Positions 18,896 to 63,415 of a DNA stretch of 64,000 nt are shown one piece after another (position 1 is the stretch's first letter; every line of letters starts with the position of its first letter). Origin of the DNA: Paraspadella gotoi (lineage: Eukaryota > Animalia > Chaetognatha); contig CM119271.1 in the NCBI GenBank assembly GCA_051294375.1, positions 10,469,427 through 10,533,426 of the forward strand, written 5' to 3'. Under the pieces are notes generated by a model that was not told the origin of the DNA, did not search any database, and saw only the letters and a program-made list of their open reading frames with translations. The position numbers and the translations under genes were made by a program.

Positions 18896-18953
<58 letters not shown>

Positions 18954-21900: not shown

Positions 21901-24900
21901 AAGGGACAAGAAGTGACAGACTACCGTTTCTTCGTCCGCTCCATTATCCGCCATTCGGATCTCGTCACCAAAGACGCCTCCTTCGAATATTTACAGAACG
22001 AGGGCGAACGTGCCGTGCTGGAGGCCATGGATGCCCTCGAGGTCGCCTTCTCCACCAACCCCACCTCCAAGAAGGCCGACTGTAACCACATCTTCCTCAA
22101 TCTATTGCCCACCGTACTCATGGACCCAACTAAGATCGAGGAGGCCATCCGCAACATCGTGCTGCGTTACGGTATCCGACTGTGGAAGCTGCGCGTGCTG
22201 CAAGCCGAGATCCGCATGACTATACGCAGCAGCGCGAACGCCCAGCGACAACCCATCCGCGTTTTTCTCTCCAACGAGAGCGGATACTATCTTGACATGT
22301 GCGTGTACAAAGAAGTGACCAATCTTGCCTCCGGACAGACCGTTTTTCAAGCGTACGGCACCAAGCAAGGACCCTGGCACGGAATGCTTACCTCCACGCC
22401 CTACATGACTAAAGACCAATTACAGCAGAAGCGATTTCAAGCTCAAACTCTCGGCACGACTTACGTGTACGATTTCCCGGAAATGTTCCATCAGGCTCTG
22501 CTCGTTTTGTGGAAAGAATACATGGAGGCGCAAAAGAGGGAAGACGGCGTCAAAGATACTACTCCCGGCGCTACGAAGCCACCGGACGCCGTTCCGAACG
22601 ATCTCCTTCATTGCATCGAATTGGTGTTGGACAAAAATCAACACCTGGCGGAGATGAATCGTCTTCAAGGAGAAAATAACATCGGGATGGTCGCCTGGAA
22701 GATGACACTGAAGACGCCCGAGTGCCCTAACGGACGCAGCATCGTCGTCATCGCCAACGACATCACCTTTAAGATCGGATCCTTCGGACCCTCGGAGGAT
22801 CGTCTCTTCCTTGAAGCCTCCGTCTACGCGCGCAAACACAAACTGCCCCGCGTCTATCTGGCGGCCAATTCCGGCGCCCGTATCGGCCTCGCGGAGGAGA
22901 TCAAGCACCTCTTCCGCATCGCTTGGATCGACCCCGAAGATCCCGACAAGGGCTTCAAGTACATCTACTTGAGTCCCGAAGACTTCAAGAAGGTCTCGAC
23001 GGCGAACTCGGTACGCGCCGAACTCATCACCGACGTCGGTGAGAAAGGAGAGACGGAGAGCCGCTACCGCATCACGGACATCATCGGCAGCGACGACGGA
23101 CTTGGCGTGGAGAACCTTCAAGGATCGGGGATGATCGCCGGAGAATCCTCTCTCGCCTACGAAGACATTGTCACCTACAATTTGGTGACGTGTCGCGCCA
23201 TCGGCATCGGCGCCTACCTCGTTCGACTCGGACAACGAACCGTTCAAGTCGAGAACTCTCACATCATCCTCACGGGAGCGGCGGCGCTCAACAAGGTGCT
23301 CGGCCGGGAAGTCTACACGTCGAACACGCAATTGGGCGGCATTCAGATCATGCACAACAACGGCGTCTCCCACGCGGTCGTGCCTAACGATTTCGAGGGA
23401 ATTTGCCTCATTTGCCGATGGCTCTCCTTCGTTCCCGCCGAAAAAGGGGGTCAATTGCCGATCTTGTCTGTCGGCGACCCAGTCAACCGAGAGATCGAGT
23501 TCGTGCCGACCAAGAGCTGCTACGAGCCGCAGTGGATGCTGGCCGGCCGACCAGATCCAGAAAATCCCGACCGATGGCAAGGTGGCTTTTTCGATCGGGG
23601 CTCCTTTCGCGAGATCATGGAGCCCTGGGCGCGGACGGTCGTCTGCGGTCGGGCGCGCCTCGGCGGCATACCCGTCGGCGTCGTCGCCGTGGAGACGCGA
23701 ACCGTCGACCTGGAGATTCCCGCCGATCCGGCTAACATCAACTCGGAACTGCGCAACATTCAACAAGCCGGTCAGGTGTGGTTTCCCGATTCGGCCTACA
23801 AGACCGCGCAGGCGCTGAAGGACTTCAATCGGGAGGAGATCCCGCTCATCATCTTCGCCAACTGGAGGGGATTCTCCGGCGGGATGAAGGATATGTACGA
23901 GATGGTGAGTTGGGGGGAAAAAGTCTCCCGAATTGCCAATTGCTTTGCAAATATATTGCTTAAGAATTCATATTATATTTTTTTTAATTTAGGTTTTGAA
24001 ATTTGGGTCGTACATCGTGGACGGACTTCGGGAATACAAGCAGCCTGTGATTGTTTACATTCCTCCGTACGCCGAACTCAGGGGCGGCGCTTGGGTCGTT
24101 GTAGATCCGACAATTAATCCTCAGCACATGGAAATGTTAGTCGTTCGCTGAAGTTTACGCAAATGAGTTTAATATTTAAATTTAGCCTTAAGTGTATAAT
24201 GAATGTACCCGAAATTCACATATTCATACCTTTTTTATTTTAGGTACGCTGACGTTCTTTCGCGCGGCGGCGTGTTGGAACCGGAAGGAACCGTTGAGAT
24301 AAAATTCCGCTCGCGTGAGTTGGTCAAAGCCATGCGTCGGTTGGATCCCCAGGTTGATGCGGTTTTGTTTCGTTATTTTATTTGGTCCTGACTTCATTTA
24401 AACTTATTGAGTATAGGATTTATTTGTTGTTTAGGTAAAGTCTTTGGCGCAGAAATTAAGCGACCCATCATTGGACGCGAAGACGAAGAACGATTTGGAA
24501 TCGGATCTTCTGGCCAGAGAGCAGTCTCTCCTGCCAATTTATACGCAAGTAAGTCGAGCCTACAACGTACAAATTTTTCGCAGTTATCAATCACTTTGAC
24601 CCAAATCAGGTCGCCATCCAATTCGCGGACCTCCACGACACCGCTGGTCGGATGCAAGAGAAAGGGGTGATCAACGACATCGTGGAGTGGCGATCCGCAC
24701 GGAGTTTCTTCTACTGGCGCCTCCGCCGACTGCTACTGGAGGATCGCGCCAAGAGGCTCATCCGCGACGCCGACGCCGATCTCCCCGAAGGCACCGTCTC
24801 TTCCATGCTGCGACGGTGGCTCGTCGAGCACAAGGGCGCCGTCAACGCTTACATCTTCGAGGATAACGAGGCGTTCGCCGAGTGGCTCGAGGATCAACTA

Positions 24901-25106
24901 GACCCAGAGCGAGAGAGCTCCTCCGTGGTGATGGAGAACATCGCCTGTCTGGCCCGCGACGCCGTCATTCAGACCATCAGGCGCCTCGTCTCTCAGCATC
25001 CCGAAGTGGCCGTCAACAGTGTCATCCACATCATGCAGACGGTCGATCCTTCCCAACGCGCCGACATCTCCAAGATTCTCGCCAATTTGGACGCCGCCGC
25101 GCAGGT

Positions 25107-25149
<43 letters not shown>

Positions 25150-28329: not shown

Positions 28330-31300
28330 ATGCGGGCGACGCGCGGCGTGACGCTCGCGACGCCGTCTCCGCCCCGTCGCCGCCACGACGTCCGCCAAGC
28401 CCTCTTCCGAGGAGCTCTACTACCCGGACCCCTTGGAGCCGCGGCCCCCCGTGCCGGGCGAGGAGCGGACCGGAAATGGTGCCCCCCCGGGGGTCAACAA
28501 CGTGACCCTCGGGGGGGCCTGGTCCTCGTCGGGCAACTCGTCCTCGGGCCGACCGGGCAAAGCCGCCTCCGTCGCCATGGCGTCGGTCAAGGCCGCCTCG
28601 ACGCCGCCCTCTGTCGCCACGCCGAGAAAGTCAAACCTGAGCGTCTCTCATTATGGCGCCGATGGATGCAAGGTTAATTTAGTTAATAGTTATTATTAAT
28701 ATTTATATAATATATAATTTAGAGTTTGCCGTGCTTTTCCATTATACGACTCCGTAATGAAAATAAACTTGTTAAGGGTTATTACATCAATATTACATTA
28801 AATAATCATCTCTTAGACACTTCCAGATAATTCAATCGAATACGTACTTACGTAATTTCTTGTAGATACAGAAGGCTTCATATTATAAAATGAGGTACCC
28901 CTTTTTTGTGACCAGAATCTGTTCCCACCAAACTACCCAATCGAATTTTATCAAATTTTACATATAAATGGAACTATCGACTATCGAACCGAATTTTGAT
29001 ATTCAACCCCTGACAAGAGATACAGGGTCCTGGGGTTGAACCCCTGGGGGGCCAAAAAAAGTTTAAAATTTTTTTTCATATTTTAATAATTTTTAGTTGC
29101 ATCAGGTGCATTGATATCTTAAACATATAAAAAAACATTTTAGAACTAAAATTGATAAATTTTTAATAATTAAGCATTGTTTGAACATGCATGATTCATC
29201 GTTTTACTTCTAATTTTCCAAAATTATTCCAAATCTGACTTGAACAGCTGATGTTCATGAAGATGAAAATTAAGGTAAATTAACATTTTTGAGGTAATAA
29301 ATACGTTTTTGTGGAAGAGTAAACGTCTGTGCTACTGTTCAAAACAAAAATAATTAAAAAATTTGGAAAAAAATATAATATCTCGGCTCAGGCGTCAAAT
29401 ATTGTAATTCGCCTCGATAGTTCTATTTGTATTCATTCCAAATTTCAATAAATTTGGTCAAGTAGTTTTCTCGGAACGTGTTCTGATCACAAAAAAAGGG
29501 TACCTCATTTTATAATATGAAGCCTTCTGTATTTATTCTTATGGATATATTTCTATGGTTGAATTTACTATCGGATTAATAGGATTATTTCTAATTTTTT
29601 CTATTTCGCCCAGACTTCGGAGGAGGATGCTCCTCTGGGATTCGAACCCGAAGGCAGCGCCTCATCGACGACGCCTCCCTTCACCGAGGCTTCCGGCACG
29701 CCCCCTTTCTACAAGTGGGCCGAGAACATCTGCTATCTACTCGAGGACGTGGACGGGGTCGACCTCTTCTCGAGGTTTTTGGAGCATGAGAACATTCTCG
29801 ACGTTCTACCGTTTTACTTCGCCGTCAAAGGTGGGTCACAACTTCGAGAGGGTAATGGGCTTTGTGGTTGTTCGGGTTATTTGATTTTGTCGCTACGAAC
29901 TTTGCTCTATTGTAATCATTGATGGCTCGGCTCCATCTGTCAAATTTTAAACCGTTCTTATACATATATTCTTTTAGTATTGTTTATATTTATTTGTGAC
30001 ATTTAGGCCTTCGTGACCAACAACTCCAATCCAAACCGGATAAAATCCAACAACTGATAAAACTCATCTTCAAAAAGTACCTTCGCGGAGACAGGGTCAT
30101 TCTGGTGCTAAAGGAAGGAACCAAGAAGAGTATCCAAGAGAAGATGTTGAACAAGAAGGAAGGGAACCAATTGGAGCCAGGTACATAGCTTAAAGAGCAA
30201 TACAATTAGGGGTTTGTGGCTAAATTTACATAGTGCGTACCACTCTCCGAATTCTTTATTTCTGTCATTAAATTACGTATAACCCGCGCGTTATCATTTC
30301 CCCCAGGAATCTTCGACGCGGCGCAGCAGGAAGTTCTAGACTACCTGGCCGGCGCCCCTTACGCGGCCTTTCTCAAGAGCGACCTCTACGTGCAACACAT
30401 CCAATGCGGCGGGCCCGAGTCTCTACCGGGCGAGAGCGTCGAGTCGTCGGGCTCTTCCTCCGGCGCTGGGAGCCACGCGGGCACGAGGCCCGTTTCGCAG
30501 GGGTAATAGAGCGACTGAATTGTCGTTACCTGCCCCACCTTTCGTATATTTATCCTAATTCTTTTCCTTCTCTCATTTCGATCATTAGTTATCTCCCGAC
30601 TCTCCACGAGAACGAAGAGCTCGAGCTCTCCGACGCTCTCCCTTCCGGCTCCGCGCGCGACGACTTCGTGCCCGCCGCCGCCGCTACAGCCTCGGCGCCG
30701 TCCGCCCGCTCCTCCGGCGCCGGGCCCTCGCCCAACGTGGTTCCGCTGAGTCTGAAGACGCTGATGGCGACGCGTCACTCTCGGTCGGCGACGGCCGGGG
30801 AATATCCGACGACGGGACGTGGACGGAACATCGATCATCAAGGGTAGGGGTGGATAGATGGGGTTGGAAAGGGTGGATAGATTGGGAAAGGGGTTGTTTA
30901 ATGGAGGAACGGAGTGGCTAGATGGGTAAAAGGGATGGATTCGATAACGAAACATTGAAATGTTTTTATGAATATATTGTTACGATTGTCGTTGTGGCGT
31001 TGTTATGGCAAGCAAACCGACAACACACACAAACAGAAGATGACCCCCTCATAAGCGTCCTGACGAACAGTGTTGAACCGTTACCAATTAGTTAATACTA
31101 ATAATCGTGACATTAATTTTTGTTTTCAGTCGATCAATCAATCCCTATCACATGAATTACTGCACATCGTACAATCCCGTTTCGGCACAAGACTCGGAAC
31201 TGCAGTCGCTCTCTAGCGACGCCTTGACCGACACCGACACCAAATCACTCACCGACTCCAGCGTGTGAGTAATTATTAAAAAAATAATAATAATTCGGCT

Positions 31301-33954: not shown

Positions 33955-36900
33955 TCTTTTTTGTCTTATTTGAAACAGGAGCTAAACTAATACTGAGTGA
34001 CATAAAAGTAAAAACAACTCTGACACGCTTTGCTAAACATACAACTCATGCAATTTGCATCAATTGCCTACTCGATACAACCAAAATATCCATTTAAGTA
34101 TAAAAATAGTGTGAATAAATAAGAAAAGGGAAAAATGCATGTATATCTTTCTCTTACCTTGTCCCTCCCACTCAAGACCGAATCTGAAGCTAAGGTGATG
34201 ATAAATCTTTGTCTGTAACTAACAAATCAATGGTTTTTTTCGCTTTTCTACTTTTTATCTTCGAAATTACCCAATCACGCAATACGGTCCCCCCGCGATA
34301 AAAATCAAGAATCACCTTTTTTTTTTTACGCTCGAGTGCCGTTTGCTTTTTTTTTTATTGTCAAATTTAGCAACTGTTTTGGTTTTTTCGTGATCCGTTA
34401 ACTTGGGCACGTATCCCCGTCATCCTTAACGTTCATATAACCTCAATGCCGTCTCGCGGAAAAAAAAAAAGAAAAACAAACGAAATTAGTTGAGGGAAGA
34501 TTCAAGGATCAAAGTCGATAGATGAAACGCCGCGAGGGACGGGTTTTTCTCCGTGTGTGAGGGAGAGAAAGTTTTCTCTCTCTCTCTTCAGCTCTATCTT
34601 GCTCCCTCCCACCCCCCCCCTCCTTGACTGCCTCGTGTTCCGGGCCTCCAACTCTAAAAGTCGTAAAATCTGATGCTCGTAAATGAGGATCCGTTCCGCT
34701 CCGCGCGGATCGCCAGGATTTCGAGAAGATCGAGAAACCGGGGGGGGGGGAAGAAACCACCTCGATCGATCGAATCCAATCGCGAGAATTTCGCTTCGAC
34801 TTTAACAATTCATGACTATTGGCCAAGGTGGTCACTGGTTAATGAAATTCCTTTGCCCTCTTCTCTCAGTAATTGCCGAAACCTTTTAACGGCTGTCCAA
34901 ACTTTGACGTTGCTGCCTTGTTCCAGCATTTTATTCAGATGAGGCTTTTAAGCGGTCTTTTTCAAGTCAAAGATGAATAAAACCATAACGCGCATTGTGA
35001 AATGTGGATTTTATGGTGAATATTTGGCGATTGTCTTTTTAGCCTCATGTTCCCCCCCCCCGTCCCACATCGCCCTGATTTATTCGTCTCCCCACCTCTG
35101 CCCTTTTCGCTTCTCCTGTTCCGCTTTTTCGGCCTTGAAATTCAAACTTGCTCCATGTGGCCCGAAGCTTTGTTTTTCGCTTCTTTAGTTCGAAGAAATT
35201 TCCGTTAGCGTTGGGTGCTTGAGAGTGGAATCGCGCCTTTAACGAAAAGGCGGAACATGCGCTTCGACGATGGCTTCAAATAACGATTACTCGTAGAGAT
35301 AGAATAACGATGAAGTGAAGATTGGTCGCCTTTAAGATTTCAAGCTCCCGCAACGCGCCATGTCTTATCCACCCGACCCACAAACTTTTAATGCTAACCT
35401 AATCTTTTCTATTTCTCCAGAGGACGGAGCGTCTGCCCAAAGATGTGAAGCCTCTGGCGGAGAGCGATTGCGAACTCTTCGCCCGCGACCTCACGCAGAG
35501 ATTGGAGAAGGTTCTTGAAAAGCAGGTAAGGAGGGAAGAGGAGAGGGGTCCCGATCACAGTTAAGGTGAAACGTGTCCTTACTCTTTCCTCGTGCTTCCC
35601 AGATGAAAGAGGAAAAGCTGCAAGAGTCTCTTCGACTTTTGAGCGTCAACGAGAATCAAGAGCAGCACTCGAAGCAGCCCGTCGAGGAGCATCCGGCGCC
35701 GCCGCCCGTGCCGCGGAAGACCGGAGTTCCCTCGGCGCCGCCCGGGCCAGGCGTCGCTAATTCTCTCAAGGTGAGGGAGCGTCGTTAATTATTTACCATT
35801 TGGATGGAGGAATTAACAATAAGTTAATTGCGAATTTTAGGGATTAATCTTCACGACGCTCTTGGCTCCGCGCGGCGAAGGCGGAGGCGTTGACGACGAA
35901 GCTCAAGCTATCCTCGACGAGCACGTTTCCAAATGGGACAGATCGGGTCACCACACGCCGAGGTAAGATTAAAAAAAAAAATCCAACCCCCCCAAAAAAA
36001 CAAAAAACTGGACGTTTTGACATTTTGCTCAACTCTTTTCCCTCAGCCGAACGCGCTCTCCGCCCAACGGACGCAAAGGCGCCCAAGCCGGCGCCGCCTT
36101 CAACGCGCCGCCTCGGCATCGACGGCACAAGGGCGGCGCCATGTCGTCGTCGTCATTCGACGCCGGTTCCACCGACACCGCCTCCCTCGTTTCCAAAGAC
36201 TCGGGCGTCTCGCGCGACTACCTCATCCAATACCAAGGGCAGAATAAGGACCACGGCGTCGACGGTGAGAGAGAGAGAGAGAGAGAAAATATCAACGAAT
36301 CTCCAAGTGATACCGAGAGGCTCAGTGATGACCGAAAGGAGTCTGCAGTCCTGTTGCCTTTTCGAACCCACCTACTTCGTACTTTAAAAAAATTACATTT
36401 TATTTTTATATCTTTGATTAGTAATTTTCCCCATTATTTTCTGCAGTCGGCAAAACGGGTTTCCACCATCTCCACCCCGGCCACCCCCTCGCCTTCTACA
36501 AGAATCCTCCGGTCAGGTTTGGAGAAAATCGACGCGCGAAACGTCGCCCGCTTTCAGGTTTGAGATCCCCGATAGATAGCGTCTCCGCAGCGCACGAGAT
36601 ATGATATGGCAACAGCNNNNNNNNNNCCCCGATAGATAGCGTGTCCGCAGCGCAAGAGATATGCTATGGCAACAGCCGGGTTGCCTGTGATGCCCATTGG
36701 GATGGGGGCATCTCACTGTTGGCTTTGGGGGCTTCCGACCCTCAGTGACGCCTCCGGTCACTGGCGCGGTTACCCTAGGACGGTCTCGCTTTGCCAACGC
36801 AGAGGGAAGTCGTTAGGACTGTGGATGGAACACTACGCCTGGGATGGTGTGTTCCCCCTCTGAGCCAATGGATTTGGCTGAAGGATGGTGGACGTGAGGC

Positions 36901-39579
36901 GGTGTGAATATACAGCCACAATGCTTAATTAAATTCCCGTTCCGCTCCCCTTTTCAGATCCCACGATCCCAACGCGGGTCAAATCCCCGGCGGACCCGCC
37001 CCCACCTCCGCTTCTACCTTCGCTCGATCCAAGTCTCGCATGACGGTCCACTCCACCGACGCCGGAAGCTCCTGCGTCGATTCGGGCGTCTCCGGCGTCT
37101 ACGTGGGCGGTGCGTCGGCGACGTCCGCGTCCGAGGGTCAAGCGAAGCCGCTGCCCTTTAGCGAGAAGGTCATCGCCTGGATGCAGGACAACGAAAACTT
37201 TTCCGACTTAAAGAAGAGCGGGAGTTCGTACGAGGCGAGTTGTTTTGTTATGAACGTTGTTTTGTTGTGAGTTTTATTTTTACTGTGATTGTTGTTTTTG
37301 TTTCTAAACTTCTCGAATTCTATTAAGTTTAATTGCTCGCGACATATGGCAATATCCAAAATATACGTAGATAATTAATAACTCTTACTTAAACCTAATC
37401 TTTCAGGCCTCGGAAGGTCGCTCGTCCTCGGCGCGGAATCGGAGCGACCGCGGCAATGGGGACCGCGCCTCCGTCTCGCACAAATCCATGTCAGGAGGTC
37501 AGGGATCGCAGAGTCCCGCGCTCCACCGAACAGACAGGTGAGATCTCTCGAAGAGAGAAAAAGAATATATTCCTTTAAAAAAAAAAATTTGGTCTTGGCT
37601 TGCCATAAAAATGGATTTAAAAAATTTTAATTTGAATTTGTATTAAATCTTAAATTTTTTCTTCAATTTTTACGGCAAACCAAGACCAAAAAACTAATGA
37701 TTTTTTAAACTACAATCCTTGCCAAAATGATCAATCTGAAAAAGTACAGAACATAAGCCTCTTGTCGTTTGTTTGTTTTAACTTTTCTCTCTTTTTTCTT
37801 TAAATCTTTTCTTTTTAACGCAAAGCTGGAACGGATGGTCCGTCGGGATGATGGGTGGATGGTAGGCATTTCTTATTCTTTCCGGTTCTGTTTTCCGTTG
37901 CTAAGTTTTCGTCCTTAAAAAAAAATAATCAATCGTATTAGCTATGGAAAAAAAAAGAAGAAATTTTCAGATCATGCTTGGCAAATTCGTTGGGCTTTTT
38001 TTTTTTTGTCTATTTTCCGTAATTCTGTAAATTGATCGACAGCGAATGAATCCAGCGCGTTTGGTGCATCCCGATTCGTCTTCCTACGGAATTAGTAATC
38101 GTATCGTTTTTCGCTCACCATCGTTTTCTCTTCTTTTTTTTCCTAAGGCCGAACAAGCGCGCCGTGGCGGCCGTGGCGCCGACGATGCCGGCCGTCGGCG
38201 TCGGGTCCGGAGCCAATCACCCGACGTCTTATCATCACTTCGGTCCGCCGGGAACGCCGCTCGCCTCCAACTCTGTCTGGCCAGTCATTCCCAACGCTGC
38301 CGAAATGCACAGGTTGGTGGAGAGAGAGATAGAGAGACAGACACTCACGTACACACACTCACACAGACACTTAGACAGAGAGACATTTGCATCTCTTCCA
38401 TTCTCTTCACAGATCTGGCAGCGGCGTCGGAACTCGTCAAGGTTCGGGCGCGGCGTCGCTCATCAGCGAAAAGCCCTCCAAAAAATCTCCCTCTTCCGCC
38501 GGCGCCTCTTTGCCAATGAGCGCGGGCGCGCATCACGGCGTTCATCCCGGCGTCGCGCAACATCTCGGCGTTCATCCAGGGTCCAACAATCCTTCGTTGA
38601 CGAATTCTCTTTCCGGTAGGCCAGGAAGTGATTGAGATAATAAGTCTAATATCCCTTGTTAATAATAAGAAATGAGAAACTGAGGAAGTGATTGAGATAA
38701 TAAGTCTAATATCCCTTGTTAATAATAAGAAATGAGAAACTCTCGTGGATTTATCAAAGACTGAATTCAATTAACTTATTATTATTAAAAATTATTCGTG
38801 AATTTCATTCGAGCTTTCGTTTTATACCTGTCGAACATTGATGGTCTTAATATAAGGCGTAATTATGTAATAGTCATTTCCTTTTACATATTTTAACCAT
38901 TGTCGCTTTTCATCTCCCTCTTTTCAGGTCCCGGAGCTTTCACGGGCAGTTCGACCTCTTCGGACGTCGGCGGCTCCCAGTCTTCCTCTACGATCTGCGG
39001 CTACTACTTTTGCGGCGAACCCATTCCATACAGAGTCTCCATCCCCAGCAAAAACCCTACCCTCGCCCAGTTCAAAGCTTTGCTCACCAAGAGAGGCAAC
39101 TTCAGGTGAGTTCGATAATTTTTACTTTTTTTTTCTCATCTCATTTTTTACCCGTTATCTGCCATTTTGTTTTTTCGATCTTACCACAGATAATTTGCTT
39201 TTTGAGACCATGATCCATGACCAAAATACTAGACAGAACTGAATGAATTTTTATATTCAACCGCTGAGCCGAGATATAGCACCCTCGGGGGATTATAACT
39301 GTTAACTGGTACAAAATTGTATCGAATTTGGAGCAATTTGATCGTAACCGATTCTGGTCACAAAAAAGCGCGACATCTTTTTTCAAATAAGAAGCCTTTT
39401 GTATTCCGAATCTTTAATCCCCGATTTCCTCCAAACCCTTTTTTTCCCCCAGATTCTTCTTCAAGAAGTCTTCGGACGAGTTCGACAGCGGCGTCGTCTT
39501 CACCGAAGTCTCCGACGATTCCTCGCCTCTTCCCTTTTGGGAAGGGAAGATCGTCGGAAAGGTGGAGCGTCTCGACTGA
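28330..39579 (+). CDS. AXIN: Axin (Wnt destruction-complex scaffold), about 18 exons; start codon uncertain
   Basis: Tankyrase motifs PRPPVPGEE and GFEPEGSAS; RGS domain ([15 protein letters not shown]...[10 protein letters not shown]); [12 protein letters not shown]; [14 protein letters not shown]...SLTDSSVD; GSK3 helix [13 protein letters not shown]; beta-catenin motif [12 protein letters not shown]; DIX domain [12 protein letters not shown]...[16 protein letters not shown]. Confidence 0.95.
28869..29529. mobile_element. Tc1/mariner-like MITE in Axin intron 1
   Basis: About 49-bp near-perfect TIRs CAGAAGGCTTCATATTATAAAATGAGGTACCCCTTTTTTGTGACCAGAA, with the reverse complement at 29481-29529; TA on both sides; CAG...CTG termini; no ORF. 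Confidence 0.85.
33061..33116. repeat. Fragment of a dispersed repeat shared with 54134-54230
   Basis: CGAGGTGGACCGATATAGAATTAATATTCCATAAAG occurs at both sites; CATTTCGTGGCGAGGTGGACCG is the reverse complement of 54134-54155. Confidence 0.8.
33899..33951. repeat. (CT)n microsatellite
   Basis: Directly visible. Confidence 0.95.
36567..36915 (-). mobile_element. GC-rich, highly structured intronic insert carrying a ribozyme (retrozyme-like or non-LTR retroelement fragment); contains an assembly gap
   Basis: Several consecutive hairpins; composition unlike the flanking AT-rich introns; first 50 nt duplicated on either side of the N run at 36617-36626. Confidence 0.55.
36718..36798 (-). ncRNA. 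Twister self-cleaving ribozyme, P5-type circular permutation
   Basis: Minus-strand RNA reads GUUGGC AAA GCGA GA CCG UCCUAGGG UAA CCGC GC CAGUGAC-CGGAGGC-GUCACUG AGG GUCGGAAGCC CCC AAA GCCAAC. Assignments: P5 GUUGGC/GCCAAC; catalytic GA; T1 CGG/CCG; U^AA cleavage site; T2 GC/GC; 7-bp P3; L4 GUNNNAAGCC. One mismatch each in P2 and P4; P1 very short. Confidence 0.8.
37588..37690. repeat. Small inverted-repeat element (MITE-like) in an Axin intron
   Basis: TTTGGTCTTGGCTTGCCATAAAAA ... TTTTTACGGCAAACCAAGACCAAA, 24-bp arms with 2 mismatches. Confidence 0.75.
38623..38741. repeat. Tandem duplication with a 60-bp period in an Axin intron
   Basis: AGGAAGTGATTGAGATAATAAGTCTAATATCCCTTGTTAATAATAAGAAATGAGAAACT occurs twice, identically. 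Confidence 0.95.
39352..39401. mobile_element. Diverged right TIR of the same MITE family as 28869-29529
   Basis: TTCTGGTCACAAAAAAG...AATAAGAAGCCTTTTG|TA aligns to TTCTGATCACAAAAAAAG...AATATGAAGCCTTCTG|TA. Confidence 0.6.
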
Positions 39580-42707: not shown

Positions 42708-44382
42708 ACTAAATTTGCTAGGCAACCAAAATTGAAAGAAAAATCATGCGCTACCATTCATTTTCTTTCTTATAATGCTTATTAAAGAATTTCTTGATTT
42801 GGCTCAATGTAAATGTAGTGACAGTGAAGACGAAAGGGAAAACTATAAAAGAGAAGGGGAGAGAATGAAAGAGAGGGTGAGAGGCAAAAAACGAAGGCAA
42901 ATGGGGAAAAAATAGTGAAACAATTGTAAGGTAAGAAAGGAGGGGAAAATTGAAAGAAAAAAGAGGGGAAAAAAGGGAAAGAATGAAAATGAGAAAAAAG
43001 GTGAGGAAAGTGCATGAGTGACCGAAAAAGGTAGGGGCCAAAAAAATGGTAAGTGACAGCGTGAGAAGTAAGGGAGGAAAGAGGAAGAGGAAAATATAAA
43101 GTAAGAGAAGAAAAGAGGTGAAGAAAAATTATCAGGAAAAGCGTATGAAAGAAAAAAAATTGTATCAGATAATGTGGCGTCTTACCTAAAATCTTTTGTG
43201 TAAGTAAAAGACATGAGGATTCTTATAAGGAATTCGATCTTTAAAAATCATCTGTACCATAAAAATTCAAGCATACTTTTTTCTAAAATTAAGGGGACCC
43301 AGTGATAAAAATGATATCATAAGCTTAAGGGTCTATCATTAAAGGAATTCGAATGGTAATAGTCATTAATTTTTCTTTCGCGCGGGAAAGTGGAGAAAAA
43401 ATTGCCATCTCTTGTTGCAATTCGAACAAGGACGAGATAATTATTGGGAAAATTTTTCATTGATCTCCCTAAATACTGATACCCTCCATTCTCTTACTTT
43501 CACTTGGGAAGTCATTTTTCCATAATTTTCGATTTTTATTTTTTAAATGCAGAAAGCTGAAATCTTGCGTCTGGGCCTCCTTTAATAAAGGAATTTTAAT
43601 GGTGGTATTACATTTTTCATATGTGCACAGGAAAATACAGAAAAAAAAACCAAATCCTTCTTAAAATTCGAACAAGGATATCATTTCATTTGGTCAACAT
43701 TTGTCATGACCCCTGTAATACCTTTCCGGTTTCTTTGACTCTTGTTCATAACAGATTAAATGTTAGGAGAGATAAAGAGCGCATCCCTTCTTCTCATACT
43801 TGTACTAATGTTAGAGGTTATATTTTGATCAAATTAATGATTTGACTTAAAAAGAAACCTGAATTAAAATTTTACCATACCATAATTTTTTAACAATTCC
43901 CGATTTTTTTAAATTTTTTTATTTTTTGAGGAAAAAATAATAATCAGCGTACGAGGTGGCCGAGACGGAAAGTGATGAACTCAACATCGTACGGAAAAGA
44001 CTGGACTAATTCCAACAATAAATATGGCTATTTTGACCCTGAAATCCTATTATAAAGTTAGTAAACAATGAATGAATAACATTTAATTCTTATCCAATTT
44101 TTTAAATAGAAAAACCACTACGGTACTACGGTACTTTGACGTCTTCGTCGATGTATTCGTCGTTGTATTCATCATCGTCGTGGTCTTTGTTCGAATCATT
44201 TGAGCTCCCAAAAGCTAACCAGCAAGATACGTTTGCAAGGCTGTTGAATTTGAAAATTGAATTGATAATAAAATTGAAATGGCATATTAATTTTATCATA
44301 ATTTTATCTTTTCTTTCTCTCTCATCTCTATCTCACTCGTTTTAAACGTGTTCGTCTCCGCCATCTTTTTCGTCGTCGTCTT

Positions 44383-44745
44383 CGCCGTCGCTTTCCTCTT
44401 TGTCGTTTTCGTCTTCTTTGTCTTTTCGTCATCGTTTTTGTCTTCCTCTTCGCCGACGCTTTCCTCTTTGTCGTTTTCGTCTTCTTTGTCTTTTCGTCAT
44501 CGTTTTTGTCTTCCTCTTCGCCGTCGCTTTCCTCTTTGTCGTTTTCGTCTTCTTTGTCTTTTCGTCATCGTTTTTGTCTTCCTCTTCGCCGTCGTTTTCC
44601 TCTTTGTCGTTGTTTTTGTCTTCTTTGTCTTTTCGTCGTCATTTTTGTCTTCCTCTTCGCCGTCGTTTTCCTCTTTGTCGTTGTTTTCGTCTTCTTTGTC
44701 TTTTCGTCGTCGTTTTTGTCTTCCTCTTCGCCGTCGTTTTCGTCG
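44383..44745. repeat. Minisatellite, 68-71-bp unit, about 5 copies
   Basis: TGTCGTT recurs at 44401, 44469, 44537, 44605 and 44676; the unit length is not a multiple of 3. Confidence 0.9.
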
Positions 44746-45161
44746 TCAAATCATTTCGAGAAATTTCGATAGTGAGAAAGAAGAGAATCCTCCTCTCCGT
44801 CGGCGAGGTAAGTTCGCGGCTAAGTCGCGGATGGACCAATCTAGATATGTCGCTCCGCGCTTAGAAAAAATCCGAAGGAACGAAGCGGTTTCAGATAATT
44901 TTGGTTCCTAGGAATTTTTTTACCAGTAGCGCCGTAAATATTACAAAAACCATGGATGATTTCTGAAAACTGCAGTGTTTGGGCTATCTAACGCACCCGG
45001 AACAAAGAAAATCCATAAAGGTTTTTGACTAAAAAATACTGAAAATAAACACGGCGTATAGTCTGATCTTTTTAATTTTTTTTTATTTTGCGGTATTTAC
45101 TGTATAAGCCAAATAAATATACAGCGTCATGCACTGATTCCGATTCTGTTGGGTTAAGCCT

Positions 45162-45233: not shown

Positions 45234-45874
45234 AGCCGGATCTGCTTATCAGCAGATTCCGGCTCTATAATTCACTTGGTAGGTCTGTCGGTCGCCACCC
45301 ATTATCTTGTCGGTAAGTCACTTATATCATCTTAGAACATCGAATTATAGAAAATTAATTCCAAAAAAATGATGTATGTCCGTCCCTCCGTCTGTCCGTC
45401 CGTCCCCCCTTAGCTTTGAATGCCAATTACTCATGTGTGTATGGGGCGATTGACTGGAAATTTTGTGTGTGTGTAAAGAAGTGTGTGATTAAGCAGGAAT
45501 TAAAGTTTCGATGAAATCGTCCTCGTGGAAGTGAGTTTAATAAATCAATCAATTAATTAATCAATTAATCAATTAATTAATCAATTAACTTATTAATCTA
45601 TCAATTGATTTATCAATCAATAAAAAATGATTAAATAATATTCTAATTAAATAATTAATCAATCATTCAATTAATCATCGTGATGTATTGTCGTCGTCGT
45701 CATCATCGTCGTCGTTGCTTTTGTCGTGCTCAGTGATCTGACGAACAGAAGTAAAAACAATTAAATAAATAATTATTAATTAATTAATTAATGTGTAATT
45801 AAATAATCTTTAAACTAATTAATTACCGCTAATAATCGTAGGCAGATACGCCGTATTGTTTGCTCAAACTTGTT
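45229..45874 (+). mobile_element. Helentron-associated non-autonomous element (HINE/DINE-1-like), copy 1
   Basis: T-rich 5' end; subterminal repeat plus partial IR GGATCTGC-TTATCA-GCAGATTCC; (GTCY)n microsatellite; 3' subterminal repeat GCAGATACG; small hairpin GTTTG-CT-CAAAC; TTGTT end in a T-rich site. Confidence 0.7.
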
Positions 45875-46069
45875 TCTTTCTTTTTTGCTTTATTCTTCAT
45901 ATCTTTGTTTCTTTCTTTCTTTCTTTCCTTCTTTCTTTCTTTCTTTCTTTGGTTCGTTTTTTTTTCTTTTTTCTTTCTTTCTTTTTTTTTCCTTTTTTTC
46001 TTTCTTTTTTTTCTTCTATCTTTCTTTTTTTTTTTCTTTGGATTGCTGAACTGTTCGTTTCAGTTCATG

Positions 46070-46470
46070 ATCTTCGCCTTCGTTTTCGTCTTTGTTTTCG
46101 CCTTCGCTTTTATCGTCTTCTTCGTCGGTGTCGTCGTTCGTCTTTGTTGTCGTTTTCGTCGTTGTTGTTGTCGTTTTCGTCGTCTTTTTCGTCGTTGTTG
46201 TTGTCGTCTTCTTCAATGTCGTTTTTGTCGTTTTCATTTTTGTCGTCGTCTTTGTTGTCGTCTTCATCATTGATGTTGTCGTCGTCTTTGTTGTCGTTTT
46301 TGTTGTCGTCTTCGTCGTTGTTGTCGTCATTGTTGTTATCGTTTTCGTTGTCATCTTTGTCGTTGTCGTCGTCTTCATCGTCTGTTTTTGCTTTCATCAT
46401 CGTTTTTGTTTTTGTTGTTGTTGTTATCGTCTTTGTTATCATTTTCGTCGACGTCTTCGTCGTTGTGGTC
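46070..46470. repeat. Compound (GTC/GTT/TTC)n low-complexity tract
   Basis: Degenerate trinucleotide repeats; the minus strand reads as D/N/E/K runs but changes frame. Confidence 0.8.
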
Positions 46471-47510
46471 TTTTCATTGTCAATTTTTCTATTGGTTTCG
46501 TTACCTCGATTGTCGGATTTCAAGAATTAATCTTTAGTGTAAGTTGGGAAACAAAAAAGAAATTTTATACCATCTTTACGTGAAAAAAAAAATCGAAACT
46601 TTGAAAAGAATTTTCCCCTTACCGAATTTTTAAACAAAAATCGGGGGAGCTTACAACATCGAAATTTTTTGACCACTTTCCCATTGGACTAGAGAAGAAA
46701 GAATTACATATTTGGAATCGGGAGTTGAAGGACCAAACGTTATGATATCAGCCTTTGACCCCCTCGATCACTGGGTTCCCTTAAGCAGTTAATGAGATTA
46801 GATTGACAAGCATTGAAGAAATCATGTCTTACCGTATTTTTAACTCATAGAAATTTACATGGGAAGTTCTAGTGATAAGAAGGAGATAACTTGAGACTAC
46901 CGTTTTTTTAAATGAAGAAAGCTTAGTACTAACCAATGAGATCAGAAATATGGTAATTATTGAAGTTCAGATTTCGTTGTCTAAAAGACACCGATTGTAT
47001 GCGAAACCTTATGCGATACTGCCGCTGTACGGGGTTGTAGATGATTGTCTTCCCATGTCAAACCTCTTAAATCAAATTTGCATATTGAATGTTCGAATTG
47101 AAAGCACGTGCGATACAGCTCTTGTTCAATCTTGACTCTTAACAAGTTATAACTTTGAGGATAATGCGCTGAGTCGGCTAACTTCTTTAACCCCCTCTAG
47201 CAGCTAGCGATTCACTGCTAAATAAGTCATGCTTATAAGCGTTTGGGTATAGATTTTTGGACAGTGTAACTCAAATTTGAAGGGTGGTCACGGATCAGTG
47301 GCGAATTCTTAGGTAAAAAGGTCATTACAAGTATTTTACTTCTGTCACGAATCAGCGAGAGGCTTTGGAAAAGGAGCAGTGGGTTGAAGAATGCTATCCG
47401 CAACATCTTTTACCCTCTCAAACAGACATGGAACGGGTCTTGGAAGCCGGCTTGAGAGTATTCTACGCCCCCAAGGCGGCTTACGGCCGTCATCACGCTT
47501 CGCGCAGGTT

Positions 47511-47584
47511 TGGTAGCGGGTTGGGATTGAACCCAGTACCTAGTGGACAAGAGCTGATGGCTTTACATAATGAGCCAGCGCGTC
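47511..47584 (-). mobile_element. tRNA-derived SINE head or tRNA pseudogene; body probably extends leftward toward about 47150
   Basis: Minus strand GACGCGC TGGCTCATTATGTAAAGC ... TGGGTTCAATCCCA ACCCGCTACCA shows an A-box-like motif, a B box and an intact T arm, but the acceptor and anticodon stems are unpaired. Confidence 0.65.
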
Positions 47585-48034
47585 ACAACTGACGATGTTA
47601 TGCTTATAGGCGGGGTGAACTTAGGCAATGCCCAATATCGTACATATTGGTGAACCCTAAAAAAAAAGAAAAAAGGTAGCATAGCAGTCTCACCAAAAGT
47701 GAAACCGGATCGGAGGATCGGGCAATCGCCGCCAGAATGGAATCGCCCAATGCTGAATGGCCGAGCTGGAACCGGAATCGACATTTTTATTCTGATATTT
47801 CACTCCCTTCTCCATTATAAAAATAAACTAATACAATTATTTTTACCTTCACGTTTACCTCATTTTTTGGGATCATCGCAACTCTTTTGTATCACTGCGC
47901 GGTTTTAATCTCCGACATCAATCCAATGCAATGCTGGGATCGAACCAAAACGTGACTTCCGCTAAAATATGGTTGGAAGCAAAAAATGTTGGACGTCGGA
48001 AGTTATCGGAATTTTTTTTTTCCGCGTTCCCTAT

Positions 48035-48893
48035 TTTTATAATCATTTTGTCGGTCCGTCGGTCCGCCCCCTCAATCTTGTCGGGCACTCAATTATATAT
48101 ATTTTTATATTGGTTGTACCAATTTCATATCATGTCAGAACATCTAATTATGATACTCTGGGAGTGAATAAACGAGACTGTGAGAGAGTCTTGATTGAAA
48201 GCTTGCAGGGACCTGCTATGTCATTATCTTGTAAGAGTGATGGAGGCCTTAAACCACCAAAGCCTGTCCAAAGTCAGGGGCAAGATAGCTTATTTATTAA
48301 ATGAATGGATAATTTTTATATTGGTTGTACCAATTTCATATTATGCAAAAAAAAATTATGTCCGTCCGTCCGTCTGTCTGTCCGTCCGACCGTCCCACCT
48401 TAGCAAAAAAACACCAATTACTCGTAATTGGATTGATGGATTGGAATGAAATTTTGTTTGTGGGTAGGGAAGTGTGTGATTGAGCTGGATATGAAGTTTC
48501 GATGGAATCGTCCGAGTGGAAATGAGTTTAAATGGAAAAAACCAAAAAAAATATTTCACTATTTGAACACCAATTGCTCATGAGTGGATGGGGCGATTGA
48601 TATGAAATTTTGTATGTGGGTAGGAAAGTGTGTGATTAAGCTGGAAATCAAGTTTCGATGGAATCGTCCGAGTGGAAATGAGTTTAAATGTAAAAACACA
48701 AAAAACCTGTTTCACTAATTGATTAATAATCAATTAGTGAAACAGATTTTTTGTGTTTTTACATTTAAACTCATTTTGCTTCTTTTTCTTTTTATATTAA
48801 ATGTAAATGCATTAATTAATTGATTAATTAATTAATATTAATTAATTAATTAATGATCGTGGGCAGATCCGACATTGTTTGCTCAAACTTGTT
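48035..48893 (+). mobile_element. HINE/DINE-1-like element, copy 2, with an internal tandem core and a foldback
   Basis: Shares (GTCY)n, the core GAAATTTTGT...AAGTGTGTGATT.AGC.GGA...GTTTCGATG (twice) and the 3' end GGCAGATCCG..ATTGTTTGCTCAAACTTGTT with copy 1. Confidence 0.75.

Positions 48894-54681: not shown

Positions 54682-63415
<8,734 letters not shown>

What the first reader, a model, noticed from the sequence alone, without database searches (positions are those of the whole stretch)
36718..36798. P5-permuted twister ribozyme antisense within an Axin intron
Seen: the minus strand reads GUUGGC-AAA-GCGA-GA-CCG-UCCUAGGG-U^AA-CCGC-GC-CAGUGAC(loop)GUCACUG-AGG-GUCGGAAGCC-CCC-AAA-GCCAAC. Established: twister (O. 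sativa and env22 structures) has U^AA, a 4-bp P2, a GC pseudoknot T2 pairing with the AAGC of loop L4, a C-G-closed P3, P4, L4 = GUNNNAAGCC, and a GA-N'N'N' strand whose three bases pair with NNN (CCU/AGG in env22, CCC/GGG in rice). Here CGG/CCG covaries exactly, all elements are in register, and the ends close through a 6-bp P5 stem, which is the P5 permutation. As I recall, the best-known animal twisters are P1 or P3 type, so this topology in an animal intron is notable. Deviations: C.A mismatch in P2, A.C mismatch in P4, and a minimal P1. Predicted cut on the minus strand between 36772 and 36771. Because it is antisense, it would not cleave Axin pre-mRNA (inference).
Basis: partly seen in the sequence, partly recalled or inferred. 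Interest (0 to 1): 0.9.

Follow-up and report, generated by a model that had tools for sequence, protein, structure and literature searches.

The report
Twister ribozyme in animal LTR-like repeat
An 81-base stretch with the layout and key bases of a self-cutting twister RNA sits in the middle of a 256-base repeat found at hundreds of places in this animal's genome, likely the leftover end-repeat (LTR) of a small retrotransposon that would use the cut to copy itself as plant retrozymes do; cutting is untested, and the Axin gene is likely just where this copy landed.

Summary
The motif is there as described: a twister-type core in P5 order on the minus strand (36718-36798), antisense in an Axin intron. 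None of 17,000 simulated windows gave it, but neither Rfam nor my phage-trained model detects it. About 200 different flanks stop at one end in a single run. The element has two sharp ends (TGTGG...CCATA), only a 6-bp terminal inverted repeat, an RTAY target and a 4-bp duplication here. The two mismatches are the family's majority state, not decay of this copy, and their equivalents are tolerated in the rice twister. Frequent variants avoid the core and fall mostly in loops. Best reading: a solo LTR of a small Gypsy-dependent, retrozyme-like element that uses a twister where plant retrozymes use a hammerhead. I found no such animal element in print. Not shown: cleavage, a two-LTR form with PBS/PPT, phased covariation. 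The monomer is predicted to misfold by about 11 kcal/mol; its palindromic P1 may favour cutting as a dimer.

The parts
36665..36920 (-). 256-bp high-copy dispersed element, LTR-like; minus-strand ends TGTGGC ... GCCATA (6-bp imperfect terminal inverted repeat)
   Evidence: Summed contig depth 0.4-2.2 million over the element against 24-243 on single-copy flanks in DNA runs X1, X2, X5. Loose ends pile up at 36664/36665 (186 contigs in X1, 199 in X2) and at 36920/36922 (89, 92). Inverted repeat extent. Single copy in the window.
36661..36664 (+). left copy of the 4-bp target-site duplication (ATGC)
   Evidence: Seen in the sequence. Flank consensus of other copies ends in ATAT/GTAT/GTAC/ATAC, i.e. 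RTAY.
36921..36924 (+). right copy of the 4-bp target-site duplication (ATGC)
   Evidence: Seen in the sequence. Flank consensus of other copies starts GTAT/ATAT/ATAC. Junction bridged by a single-copy contig of run X5, 36889-37600.
36718..36798 (-). twister-type ribozyme motif, P5 permutation
   Evidence: Sequence; descriptor and simulated-window control; base-by-base match to the rice Osa-1-4 residues listed in the supplement of PMC5113685.
36793..36798 (-). P5, 5' strand (pairs with 36718-36723)
   Evidence: I16
36781..36789 (-). P2 strand GCGA (36789-36786), predicted general-base G (36785), conserved A (36784), T1 strand CCG (36783-36781)
   Evidence: Positional equivalence to A41-G44, G45, A46, G47-G49 of Osa-1-4; role of the G from PMC9901934 passages.
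36773..36780 (-). P1 region UCCUAGGG: 2-3 bp hairpin as a monomer, self-complementary as a dimer
   Evidence: No stable monomer fold; duplex with itself -11.0 kcal/mol; palindrome CCTAGG (I17).
36770..36772 (-). U^AA; predicted cut between 36772 and 36771
   Evidence: By analogy to the twister cut site (PMC8501958 sections 17 and 19); untested.
36764..36769 (-). P2 strand CCGC (first pair is C.A) and T2 strand GC
   Evidence: Sequence; no variant at >=1% at either base of the C.A in 4 of 4 runs.
36743..36763 (-). P3, 7 bp, C-G closed; its loop holds the only frequent variants of the ribozyme (36752, 36756)
   Evidence: I7
36727..36742 (-). P4 (3 G-C pairs plus A.C) and loop L4 UCGGAAGC, with T1 strand CGG (36737-36735) and T2 strand GC (36732-36731)
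   Evidence: Sequence; weak partial Rfam twister-P1 alignment over 36723-36766.
36799..36920 (-). 5' part of the element: hairpin 36863-36879 and a branched domain closed by 36800-36806/36856-36862; more variable than the ribozyme; a CCAAT box lies at 36865-36869 on the + strand
   Evidence: promoter function untested
36665..36717 (-). 3' part of the element: two hairpins (36689-36712 and 36668-36685)
36558..36957 (+). Axin intron that hosts the element; about 80 bp without the element, its duplication and the gap artefact
   Evidence: Spliced contig 25 of run X9; GT..AG ends and length; Axin domains.

Best explanation
The 81-base motif has the layout and conserved bases of a P5-permuted twister and is predicted to cut its own RNA between 36772 and 36771; it lies in the middle of a 256-bp high-copy element that is likely the solo LTR of a small non-autonomous, Gypsy-dependent retroelement of the retrozyme kind. 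Shown: the motif, the element's two fixed ends, the RTAY target, the 4-bp duplication at this copy, and the family's constant ribozyme core. [quoted passage not shown] The P5 order suits this, because both sides of the cut are encoded by the element, whereas the P1-type twisters of RTE elements borrow their 5' strand from the host. Cutting is likely slower or more conditional than in model twisters, and may be helped by pairing of the palindromic P1 of two copies. This copy is antisense to Axin and would not cut its pre-mRNA.
For: Motif beyond chance. All invariant core bases seen in 21 phage P5-order twisters are present except the swapped T1 pairs. In the rice twister the equivalent changes keep activity at a 2-h end point: G44A 0.97, C20A+G35C 0.90, G44A+C20A 0.75, C27G+G47C 0.86, C26G+G48C 0.74, C21G+G34C 0.83 (read by column count from the supplement matrix of PMC5113685). 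P1 is dispensable (PMC5408937). Element: depth jump of three to four orders of magnitude, two sharp ends, RTAY on both sides; the non-consensus target ATGC is repeated on both sides here. The 5' end TGTGG fits the TGTNR pattern of Gypsy LTRs (PMC2836005). 4-bp duplications mark plant LTR retrozymes (PMC4918200) and the ant PbTRIM family, which prefers ATAT (PMC3532108). Constraint: of 17 sites with a variant at >=4% in any run, 13 are unpaired and 4 paired (102 and 154 positions; Fisher p 0.002). Only 2 lie in the 81-nt ribozyme, both in the P3 loop, against 15 in the 122-nt 5' part (p 0.018).
Against: No two-LTR form, PBS, PPT or internal region was seen: no genome is held and loose ends are merged by place. 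The 3' end is ATA, not the ACA of the TGTNR pattern. No AATAAA or well-placed TATA. No covariance model detects the motif. The twister fold lies 11.0 kcal/mol above the predicted minimum, against a median of 2.6 in 21 phage examples that I had chosen for clean stems (2 of 21 above 8); pseudoknots are not counted. P1 and P4 have pair probability near 0. The P2 pair next to the cut is standard in 21 of 21 phage examples. One related rice double mutant, G44A+G35C, drops to 0.25, and the combined changes were never measured. No compensatory change inside the ribozyme could be phased. The loop bias loses significance on the unconstrained minus-strand fold (p 0.21) and also appears on the plus-strand fold (p 0.017); the ribozyme-versus-5'-part contrast is p 0.08 at a 5% threshold. 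A young, homogeneous family looks conserved without selection.
Confidence: 0.48

Rival explanations
1. The element is a non-autonomous derivative or solo pseudo-LTR of a Penelope-like (Naiad-type) retroelement that carries a P5 twister in place of the hammerhead and is inserted by target-primed reverse transcription at TA-rich sites.
For: Naiads lack canonical hammerheads and prefer (TA)n targets (PMC8557442). Animal retrozymes are proposed to derive from Penelope-like elements (bioRxiv 10.64898/2026.07.22.740005). Unchecked notes of this scan report P5-order twisters with a palindromic P1 in clam Naiad tails, and this P1 is palindromic too. Fewer contigs end at the 5' end than at the 3' end (89 against 186 in X1).
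Against: Both ends are fixed to the base in many copies, with RTAY on both sides and a clean 4-bp duplication here. Naiad duplications were often not discernible and insertions form tandem or inverted structures with a 30-40-bp tail at one end. No head-to-tail joint was among the 15 joints shown of 92. DNA depth does not fall towards the 5' end.
Confidence: 0.18
2. The twister fold is inherited from an active ancestor, but the present family barely cuts: it misfolds, and the element spreads without needing cleavage.
For: 11 kcal/mol gap to a competing helix that pairs the P1/L1 strand with L4/P4; two family-wide mismatches; no model hit; an upstream stretch (36891-36901) can pair with the P3 loop (I5).
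Against: Every catalytic and pseudoknot base is intact, and no variant at these positions exceeds 2% in any of the 4 runs. Frequent variants avoid the core. Equivalent mismatches are tolerated in the rice twister. The folding model omits both pseudoknots.
Confidence: 0.2
3. The element is a MITE of the Ginger2 DNA-transposon kind, moved by cut-and-paste, that happens to carry a captured twister.
For: Ginger2 has TGTNR ends, 4-bp duplications and AT-rich RTATAY targets, and a non-autonomous member of 252 bp is listed (PMC2836005).
Against: Ginger2 inverted repeats are about 45-180 bp; here only 5 of the first 6 bases match and then none. The duplicated 4-mer is RTAY rather than the TATA centre of RTATAY. 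A DNA transposon has no evident reason to keep an RNA catalytic core.
Confidence: 0.1
4. The motif has a role in Axin regulation, for example in processing an antisense transcript.
For: It lies in an Axin intron.
Against: It is one of hundreds or more near-identical insertions, and this copy differs from the majority of the family at one loop base only among the variants at >=1% over 36655-36815. It is on the wrong strand to cut Axin pre-mRNA.
Confidence: 0.03

Closest known systems
Twister ribozyme, type P5 (Roth et al. 2014, not read; described in PMC5408937 and PMC10085705, passages; Rfam clan CL00120)
   Same: Order of elements; U^AA; P2, P4; both pseudoknots; catalytic G and A; termini in P5.
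   Different: Not detected by the Rfam twister models; two of three T1 pairs swapped; C.A at the P2 pair next to the cut; 2-3 bp palindromic P1, where 21 phage examples have at least 5 bp; lies in an animal repeat.
Plant LTR retrozymes (Cervera, Urbina, de la Pena 2016, PMC4918200; passages)
   Same: Self-cleaving ribozyme with a closed, internal cut site in the middle of an LTR-sized unit; 4-bp target duplication; solo LTRs common; non-coding.
   Different: Twister rather than type III hammerhead; animal host; unit 256 bp against 300-400 bp; target RTAY against WWRR; two-LTR form, PBS, PPT and circular RNA not seen here.
PbTRIM, ant terminal-repeat retrotransposon in miniature (PMC3532108; passages)
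   Same: Animal non-autonomous LTR element; 4-bp duplication with ATAT preference; many solo LTRs, some in introns.
   Different: No ribozyme was mentioned in the passages read; no sequence comparison was possible.
Twister T-variants at the 5' end of Perere-3 (RTE) in Schistosoma mansoni (PMC8501958; abstract and sections 3, 17, 19)
   Same: Twister tied to an animal retrotransposon, with weak P1 tolerated.
   Different: Those are P1-type, cut at the element's 5' end and take part of P1 from the target site. Here the cut is 149 nt inside an element whose two ends are fixed.
Metazoan non-LTR retrozymes (PMC7229834, PMC7761336; passages)
   Same: Short non-coding animal repeats with a ribozyme; some cut as dimers because one helix is weak.
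   Different: They carry type I hammerheads, are tandem, have GC below 50%, have larger duplications and lack LTR features.

Membership tests
Twister ribozyme, type P5 | Stems P2 and P4, loop L1 with U^AA, loop L4, in the order P5-P2-GA-T1-P1-UAA-P2-T2-P3-P4-L4-P4-P5 | tested here: met
   Sequence and descriptor; one mismatch each in P2 and P4.
Twister ribozyme, type P5 | [quoted passage not shown] | tested here: met
   CGG/CCG and GC/GC; such swaps are tolerated in Osa-1-4.
Twister ribozyme, type P5 | Conserved core bases, including general-base G and general-acid A | tested here: met
   Equivalents of A7, A8, G13, C14, C15, G19, G23, U24, C25, A28, A29, G30, C31, C32, G45, A46 of Osa-1-4 are present (residue list); compare invariant columns of phage examples.
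Twister ribozyme, type P5 | Stem P1 | tested here: inconclusive
   Only 2-3 bp and no stable monomer hairpin; P1 is reported dispensable.
Twister ribozyme, type P5 | Score above threshold against the Rfam twister models | tested here: not met
   my own phage-trained model also missed it. So: works like a twister, but is not a member of the Rfam families as curated.
Twister ribozyme, type P5 | Covariation among homologues | tested here: inconclusive
   Family too uniform and variants unphased; frequent variants avoid the core. No outside relative found.
Twister ribozyme, type P5 | Site-specific self-cleavage | not testable with these tools
   Only assembled contigs were available.
LTR retrozyme / Gypsy-dependent non-autonomous LTR element | 4-bp target-site duplication | tested here: met
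   ATGC on both sides of this copy; RTAY consensus at both ends of the family, not phased per copy.
LTR retrozyme / Gypsy-dependent non-autonomous LTR element | TG...CA termini (TGTNR) with a short inverted repeat | tested here: inconclusive
   One end fits TGTNR; the other reads ATA instead of ACA; 5 of 6 bases inverted.
LTR retrozyme / Gypsy-dependent non-autonomous LTR element | Two LTRs enclosing an internal region with PBS and PPT | not testable with these tools
   No genome held; this copy is single and flanked directly by the duplication; merged loose ends cannot show a minority internal sequence.
LTR retrozyme / Gypsy-dependent non-autonomous LTR element | Type III hammerhead in the LTR | tested here: not met
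   No CUGANGA or GAAA on either strand; no Rfam hammerhead hit. The ribozyme is a twister type, so this is not filed as a member of the plant family.
LTR retrozyme / Gypsy-dependent non-autonomous LTR element | Circular RNA intermediate | not testable with these tools
   One RNA-like run, as contigs only.
Ginger2 non-autonomous DNA transposon | Terminal inverted repeats of about 45-180 bp | tested here: not met
   6 bp, imperfect (definition).
Penelope-like / Naiad derivative | Shared 3' region with an autonomous GIY-YIG/RT element; tandem or inverted, 5'-truncated copies | tested here: inconclusive
   No such ORF next to this copy (by eye); both ends fixed; no genome to search.
RTE-associated P1 twister (Perere-3 type) | Cut site at the element's 5' end, P1 completed by host sequence | tested here: not met
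   The cut lies 149 nt inside the element, which supplies both sides.

The most novel reading that the evidence does not exclude
An animal LTR retrozyme: an abundant Gypsy-mobilised non-coding element whose LTR carries a P5-permuted twister instead of a hammerhead, cut as a P1-swapped dimer between the two LTRs of one transcript and spread through a circular RNA. This would be the first twister-based and the first animal LTR retrozyme that I can find.
Probability: 0.35. Interest if true: 0.82.

Novelty: new variant of a known kind. Interest (0 to 1): 0.62.

Why it matters
Published retrozymes split into plant LTR elements with type III hammerheads and animal non-LTR elements with type I hammerheads. 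Published animal twisters with a known role are P1-type heads of RTE elements. A P5 twister inside an integrase-inserted, LTR-like animal repeat would cross both lines. It would show that ribozyme classes are interchangeable in this life cycle and give the P5 permutation a biological job. It would also mean Rfam misses a whole twister family with hundreds to thousands of copies in one genome. The family gives a direct test of whether a weak, palindromic P1 makes cleavage depend on two copies meeting.

Tried and rejected
Whole-genome search: no genome held. Rfam: no twister hit at threshold; the two miRNA-family matches at 37590-37688 are far below gathering and taken as chance. Own covariance model from 21 phage P5-order twisters: I dropped 3 poorly aligned rows of 24, themselves picked by hand from the best-paired of 94 loci. 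The model missed the motif: 10 hits at E<=10, none here. It has GGG/CCC almost fixed in T1, a long P1 and treats P3 as an insertion, so the miss says little, but it is a miss. Relatives elsewhere: 0 matches in viral contigs; 62 matches to a looser pattern, 0 of 62 fitting the descriptor; 0 in metagenomes. Of 20 viral and 29 metagenome matches to the swapped-T1 pattern, none had fewer than 2 mismatches in P2 plus P4, and blastn found no likeness to the element in any stored locus. No second copy in the window. No tRNA; no B box, AATAAA or hammerhead core in the element, so a tRNA-derived SINE is not supported. Helitron rejected because of the target duplication (recalled definition). Expression: no run is on record as RNA. 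X9 holds a spliced Axin contig and many element-bearing contigs, and its depth relative to DNA runs is lower around and 5' of the predicted cut than 3' of it. Contigs cannot show level, strand or ends, so I draw nothing from this. Earlier notes: nothing on this genome or sequence. One paper search returned only irrelevant papers.
Full report
Observation. It holds, in P5 order, every element of the twister consensus described in PMC5408937 (passages) and tabulated in PMC8501958 (section 17): P5 (6 bp), P2 strand, GA, T1 strand, P1 region, U^AA, P2 strand, GC of T2, a C-G-closed P3 of 7 bp, P4 and loop L4. T1 is CGG/CCG and T2 is GC/GC. A descriptor of the core matched only this site in the window. 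It matched 10 times in 928 simulated windows and 154 times in 17,000, none of the 154 with both P3 and P5 of at least 5 bp. The descriptor was written after the motif was seen. Against this, Rfam finds nothing at the gathering score, no twister in 2.5 kb at E<=5, and only a partial twister-P1 match of 13.4 bits, E 2.6, in 141 nt. A model I built from 21 phage P5-order twisters also missed it.

Host gene. The window is animal DNA: an acetyl-CoA carboxylase fragment has its best hits in diverse animals at 65-68% identity, with no close relative listed. Axin is on the + strand. A spliced contig of run X9 places exons on both sides, giving an intron 36558-36957 with GT..AG ends. The motif is therefore antisense in an Axin intron.

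The motif belongs to a repeat. Nine public runs from three studies hold the region. Laying four of them on 35800-37600 shows summed contig depth of 0.4-2.2 million over 36665-36920 in the DNA runs, against 24-243 on the flanks. The tool warns that this is not a copy number; thousands of copies is my rough reading. The firm lower bound is the number of distinct contigs that leave the element at its ends: 186 (X1) and 199 (X2) at 36664/36665, and 89 and 92 at 36920/36922. The flank consensus is RTAY on both sides. This copy has the non-consensus 4-mer ATGC on both sides, which is good evidence of a true 4-bp duplication. A single-copy contig of X5 bridges the right junction with 32 bases inside the element, so the insertion is not an assembly artefact; the left junction was not bridged. 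The ends are TGTGGC and GCCATA on the minus strand: 5 of 6 bases inverted and then nothing. Without the element the intron is about 80 bp.

What kind of element. PMC2836005 (passages) gives TGTNR as the terminal pattern of most Gypsy LTRs and of Ginger transposons, but Ginger2 has inverted repeats of about 45-180 bp, which are absent here. Plant LTR retrozymes have a hammerhead inside 300-400-bp LTRs, 4-bp duplications and many solo LTRs (PMC4918200, passages; PMC9695139, passages). The ant PbTRIM family shows that animal non-autonomous LTR elements with 4-bp ATAT duplications and many solo LTRs exist (PMC3532108, passages). Animal retrozymes are described as lacking LTR features and having larger duplications (PMC7229834, PMC7761336, passages). 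Known animal twisters with a role are P1-type heads of RTE elements (PMC8501958, abstract and sections 3, 17, 19). Here the predicted cut lies 149 nt inside an element with two fixed ends, which does not fit that model. A solo LTR fits best, with one departure: the 3' end reads ATA, not ACA. The decisive two-LTR form with PBS and PPT could not be sought. A Naiad-type origin stays open: Naiads lack canonical hammerheads and prefer (TA)n (PMC8557442, passages), and unchecked notes of this scan describe P5-order twisters in clam Naiads.

Variation across copies. A second laying on 36655-36815 listed all 27 variants at >=1% in runs X9, X1, X4, X6. The window copy equals the majority except at 36756 in the P3 loop. 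Neither base of the P2 C.A varies at that level. At the P4 A.C a minority of 0.9-3.9% carries a pairing base. The mismatches are thus the family's usual state. Combining (one search hid 32 less-supported rows), 17 sites reach 4% in some run. Thirteen are unpaired and 4 paired in the twister-constrained fold (p 0.002); only 2 lie in the ribozyme, both in the P3 loop, against 15 in the 122-nt 5' part (p 0.018; 0.08 at a 5% threshold). The loop bias is not significant on the unconstrained minus-strand fold (p 0.21) and also shows on the plus-strand fold (p 0.017). One pair in the 5' domain (36832/36850) varies on both sides, at frequencies that imply a G.U intermediate only on the minus strand. 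The minus strand also folds better against shuffles (z -3.0 versus -1.3). Variants could not be phased, so this is a sign of constraint, not proof of covariation.

Would it cut. I read the whole main text of PMC5113685 and rows of its supplementary matrix, by column count from a PDF extract. In the rice twister the change that makes the same C.A in P2 keeps relative activity 0.97; the same A.C in P4, 0.90; the two T1 swaps, 0.86 and 0.74; the P4 swap, 0.83. G44A with C20A gives 0.75, but G44A with G35C gives 0.25. These are 2-h end points that hide rate losses, in an RNA with a full P1, and the combination was not measured. Folding counts against an easy monomer: the twister secondary structure lies 11.0 kcal/mol above the predicted minimum, against a median of 2.6 for the 21 phage examples (chosen for clean stems; pseudoknots not counted). 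The competing helix uses the GGG of P1. P1 is a palindrome that pairs with itself at -11 kcal/mol, so pairing between two copies, such as the two LTRs of one transcript, could free the core. This is inference: the predicted minimum for two copies does not show that pairing, and low-frequency variants in the P1 loop (up to 3% in X1) would weaken the palindrome. I put the chance that natural copies cut measurably at about 0.7.

Novelty. Searches for twister with type P5, permutation, LTR, retrozyme, Gypsy and animal gave no paper that describes a twister in an LTR or an animal LTR retrozyme. For most hits I saw only the listing; passages were read for PMC6765202, PMC10085705, PMC9901934 and two preprints. 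The library lacks most subscription papers. Roth et al. 2014 and its supplement, which list the hosts of P5 twisters, were not seen, and preprint supplements are closed; these may bear on the claim. No relative was found in viral or metagenome contigs.

Verdict. A real twister-type motif in P5 order, outside the Rfam families, carried by a high-copy element whose ends and target duplication point to integrase insertion, most likely a solo LTR of a retrozyme-like element. The Axin location is likely incidental. New variant of a known kind; interest 0.62, and about 0.8 if the two-LTR form and cleavage are shown.

Noticed in passing
window 36567-36676: A 50-bp duplication (94% alike) around the 10-N gap, including the first 12 bases of the element; likely an overlap of two contigs or haplotypes at a scaffold join, not a real tandem copy.
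   Followed up: partly
window 36447-36557: A small Axin exon in which the window differs from the laid runs by three single-base indels (36505 and 36515 in 4 of 4 runs, 36547 in the 3 DNA runs), so the window's frame here is probably wrong.
   Followed up: partly
window 36749-36759 with 36891-36901: The element's 5' part is complementary to the P3 loop and 3' strand of the ribozyme and displaces P3 and P5 in the full-length fold; a possible switch, with no covariation seen.
   Followed up: partly
window 28863-29535: Inverted arms of 96 nt (82% complementary) 481 nt apart in an Axin intron; MITE-like.
   Followed up: no
window 37590-37688: AT-rich hairpin in an Axin intron with weak, sub-threshold miRNA-family matches; perhaps a tiny foldback element.
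   Followed up: no
window about 38623-38743: A roughly 60-bp unit repeated twice head to tail in an Axin intron, seen by eye.
   Followed up: no
window 45419-48721: A 156-nt repeat in three copies, two of them tandem (D15), and a 68-71-nt tandem array at 44291-44772 (D10).
   Followed up: no
window about 14700-25120 and 56700-61040: Acetyl-CoA carboxylase gene upstream of Axin and a TPR-like gene downstream that resembles TTC25/ODAD4 (name recalled, not tested).
   Followed up: no
loci L063-L119, L140, L143: 33 distinct phage sequences with a clean twister core in P5 order and, in all but two, a long P1 hairpin; many have no evident P5 stem. Strong covariation in 21 aligned. Not checked against Rfam.
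   Followed up: partly
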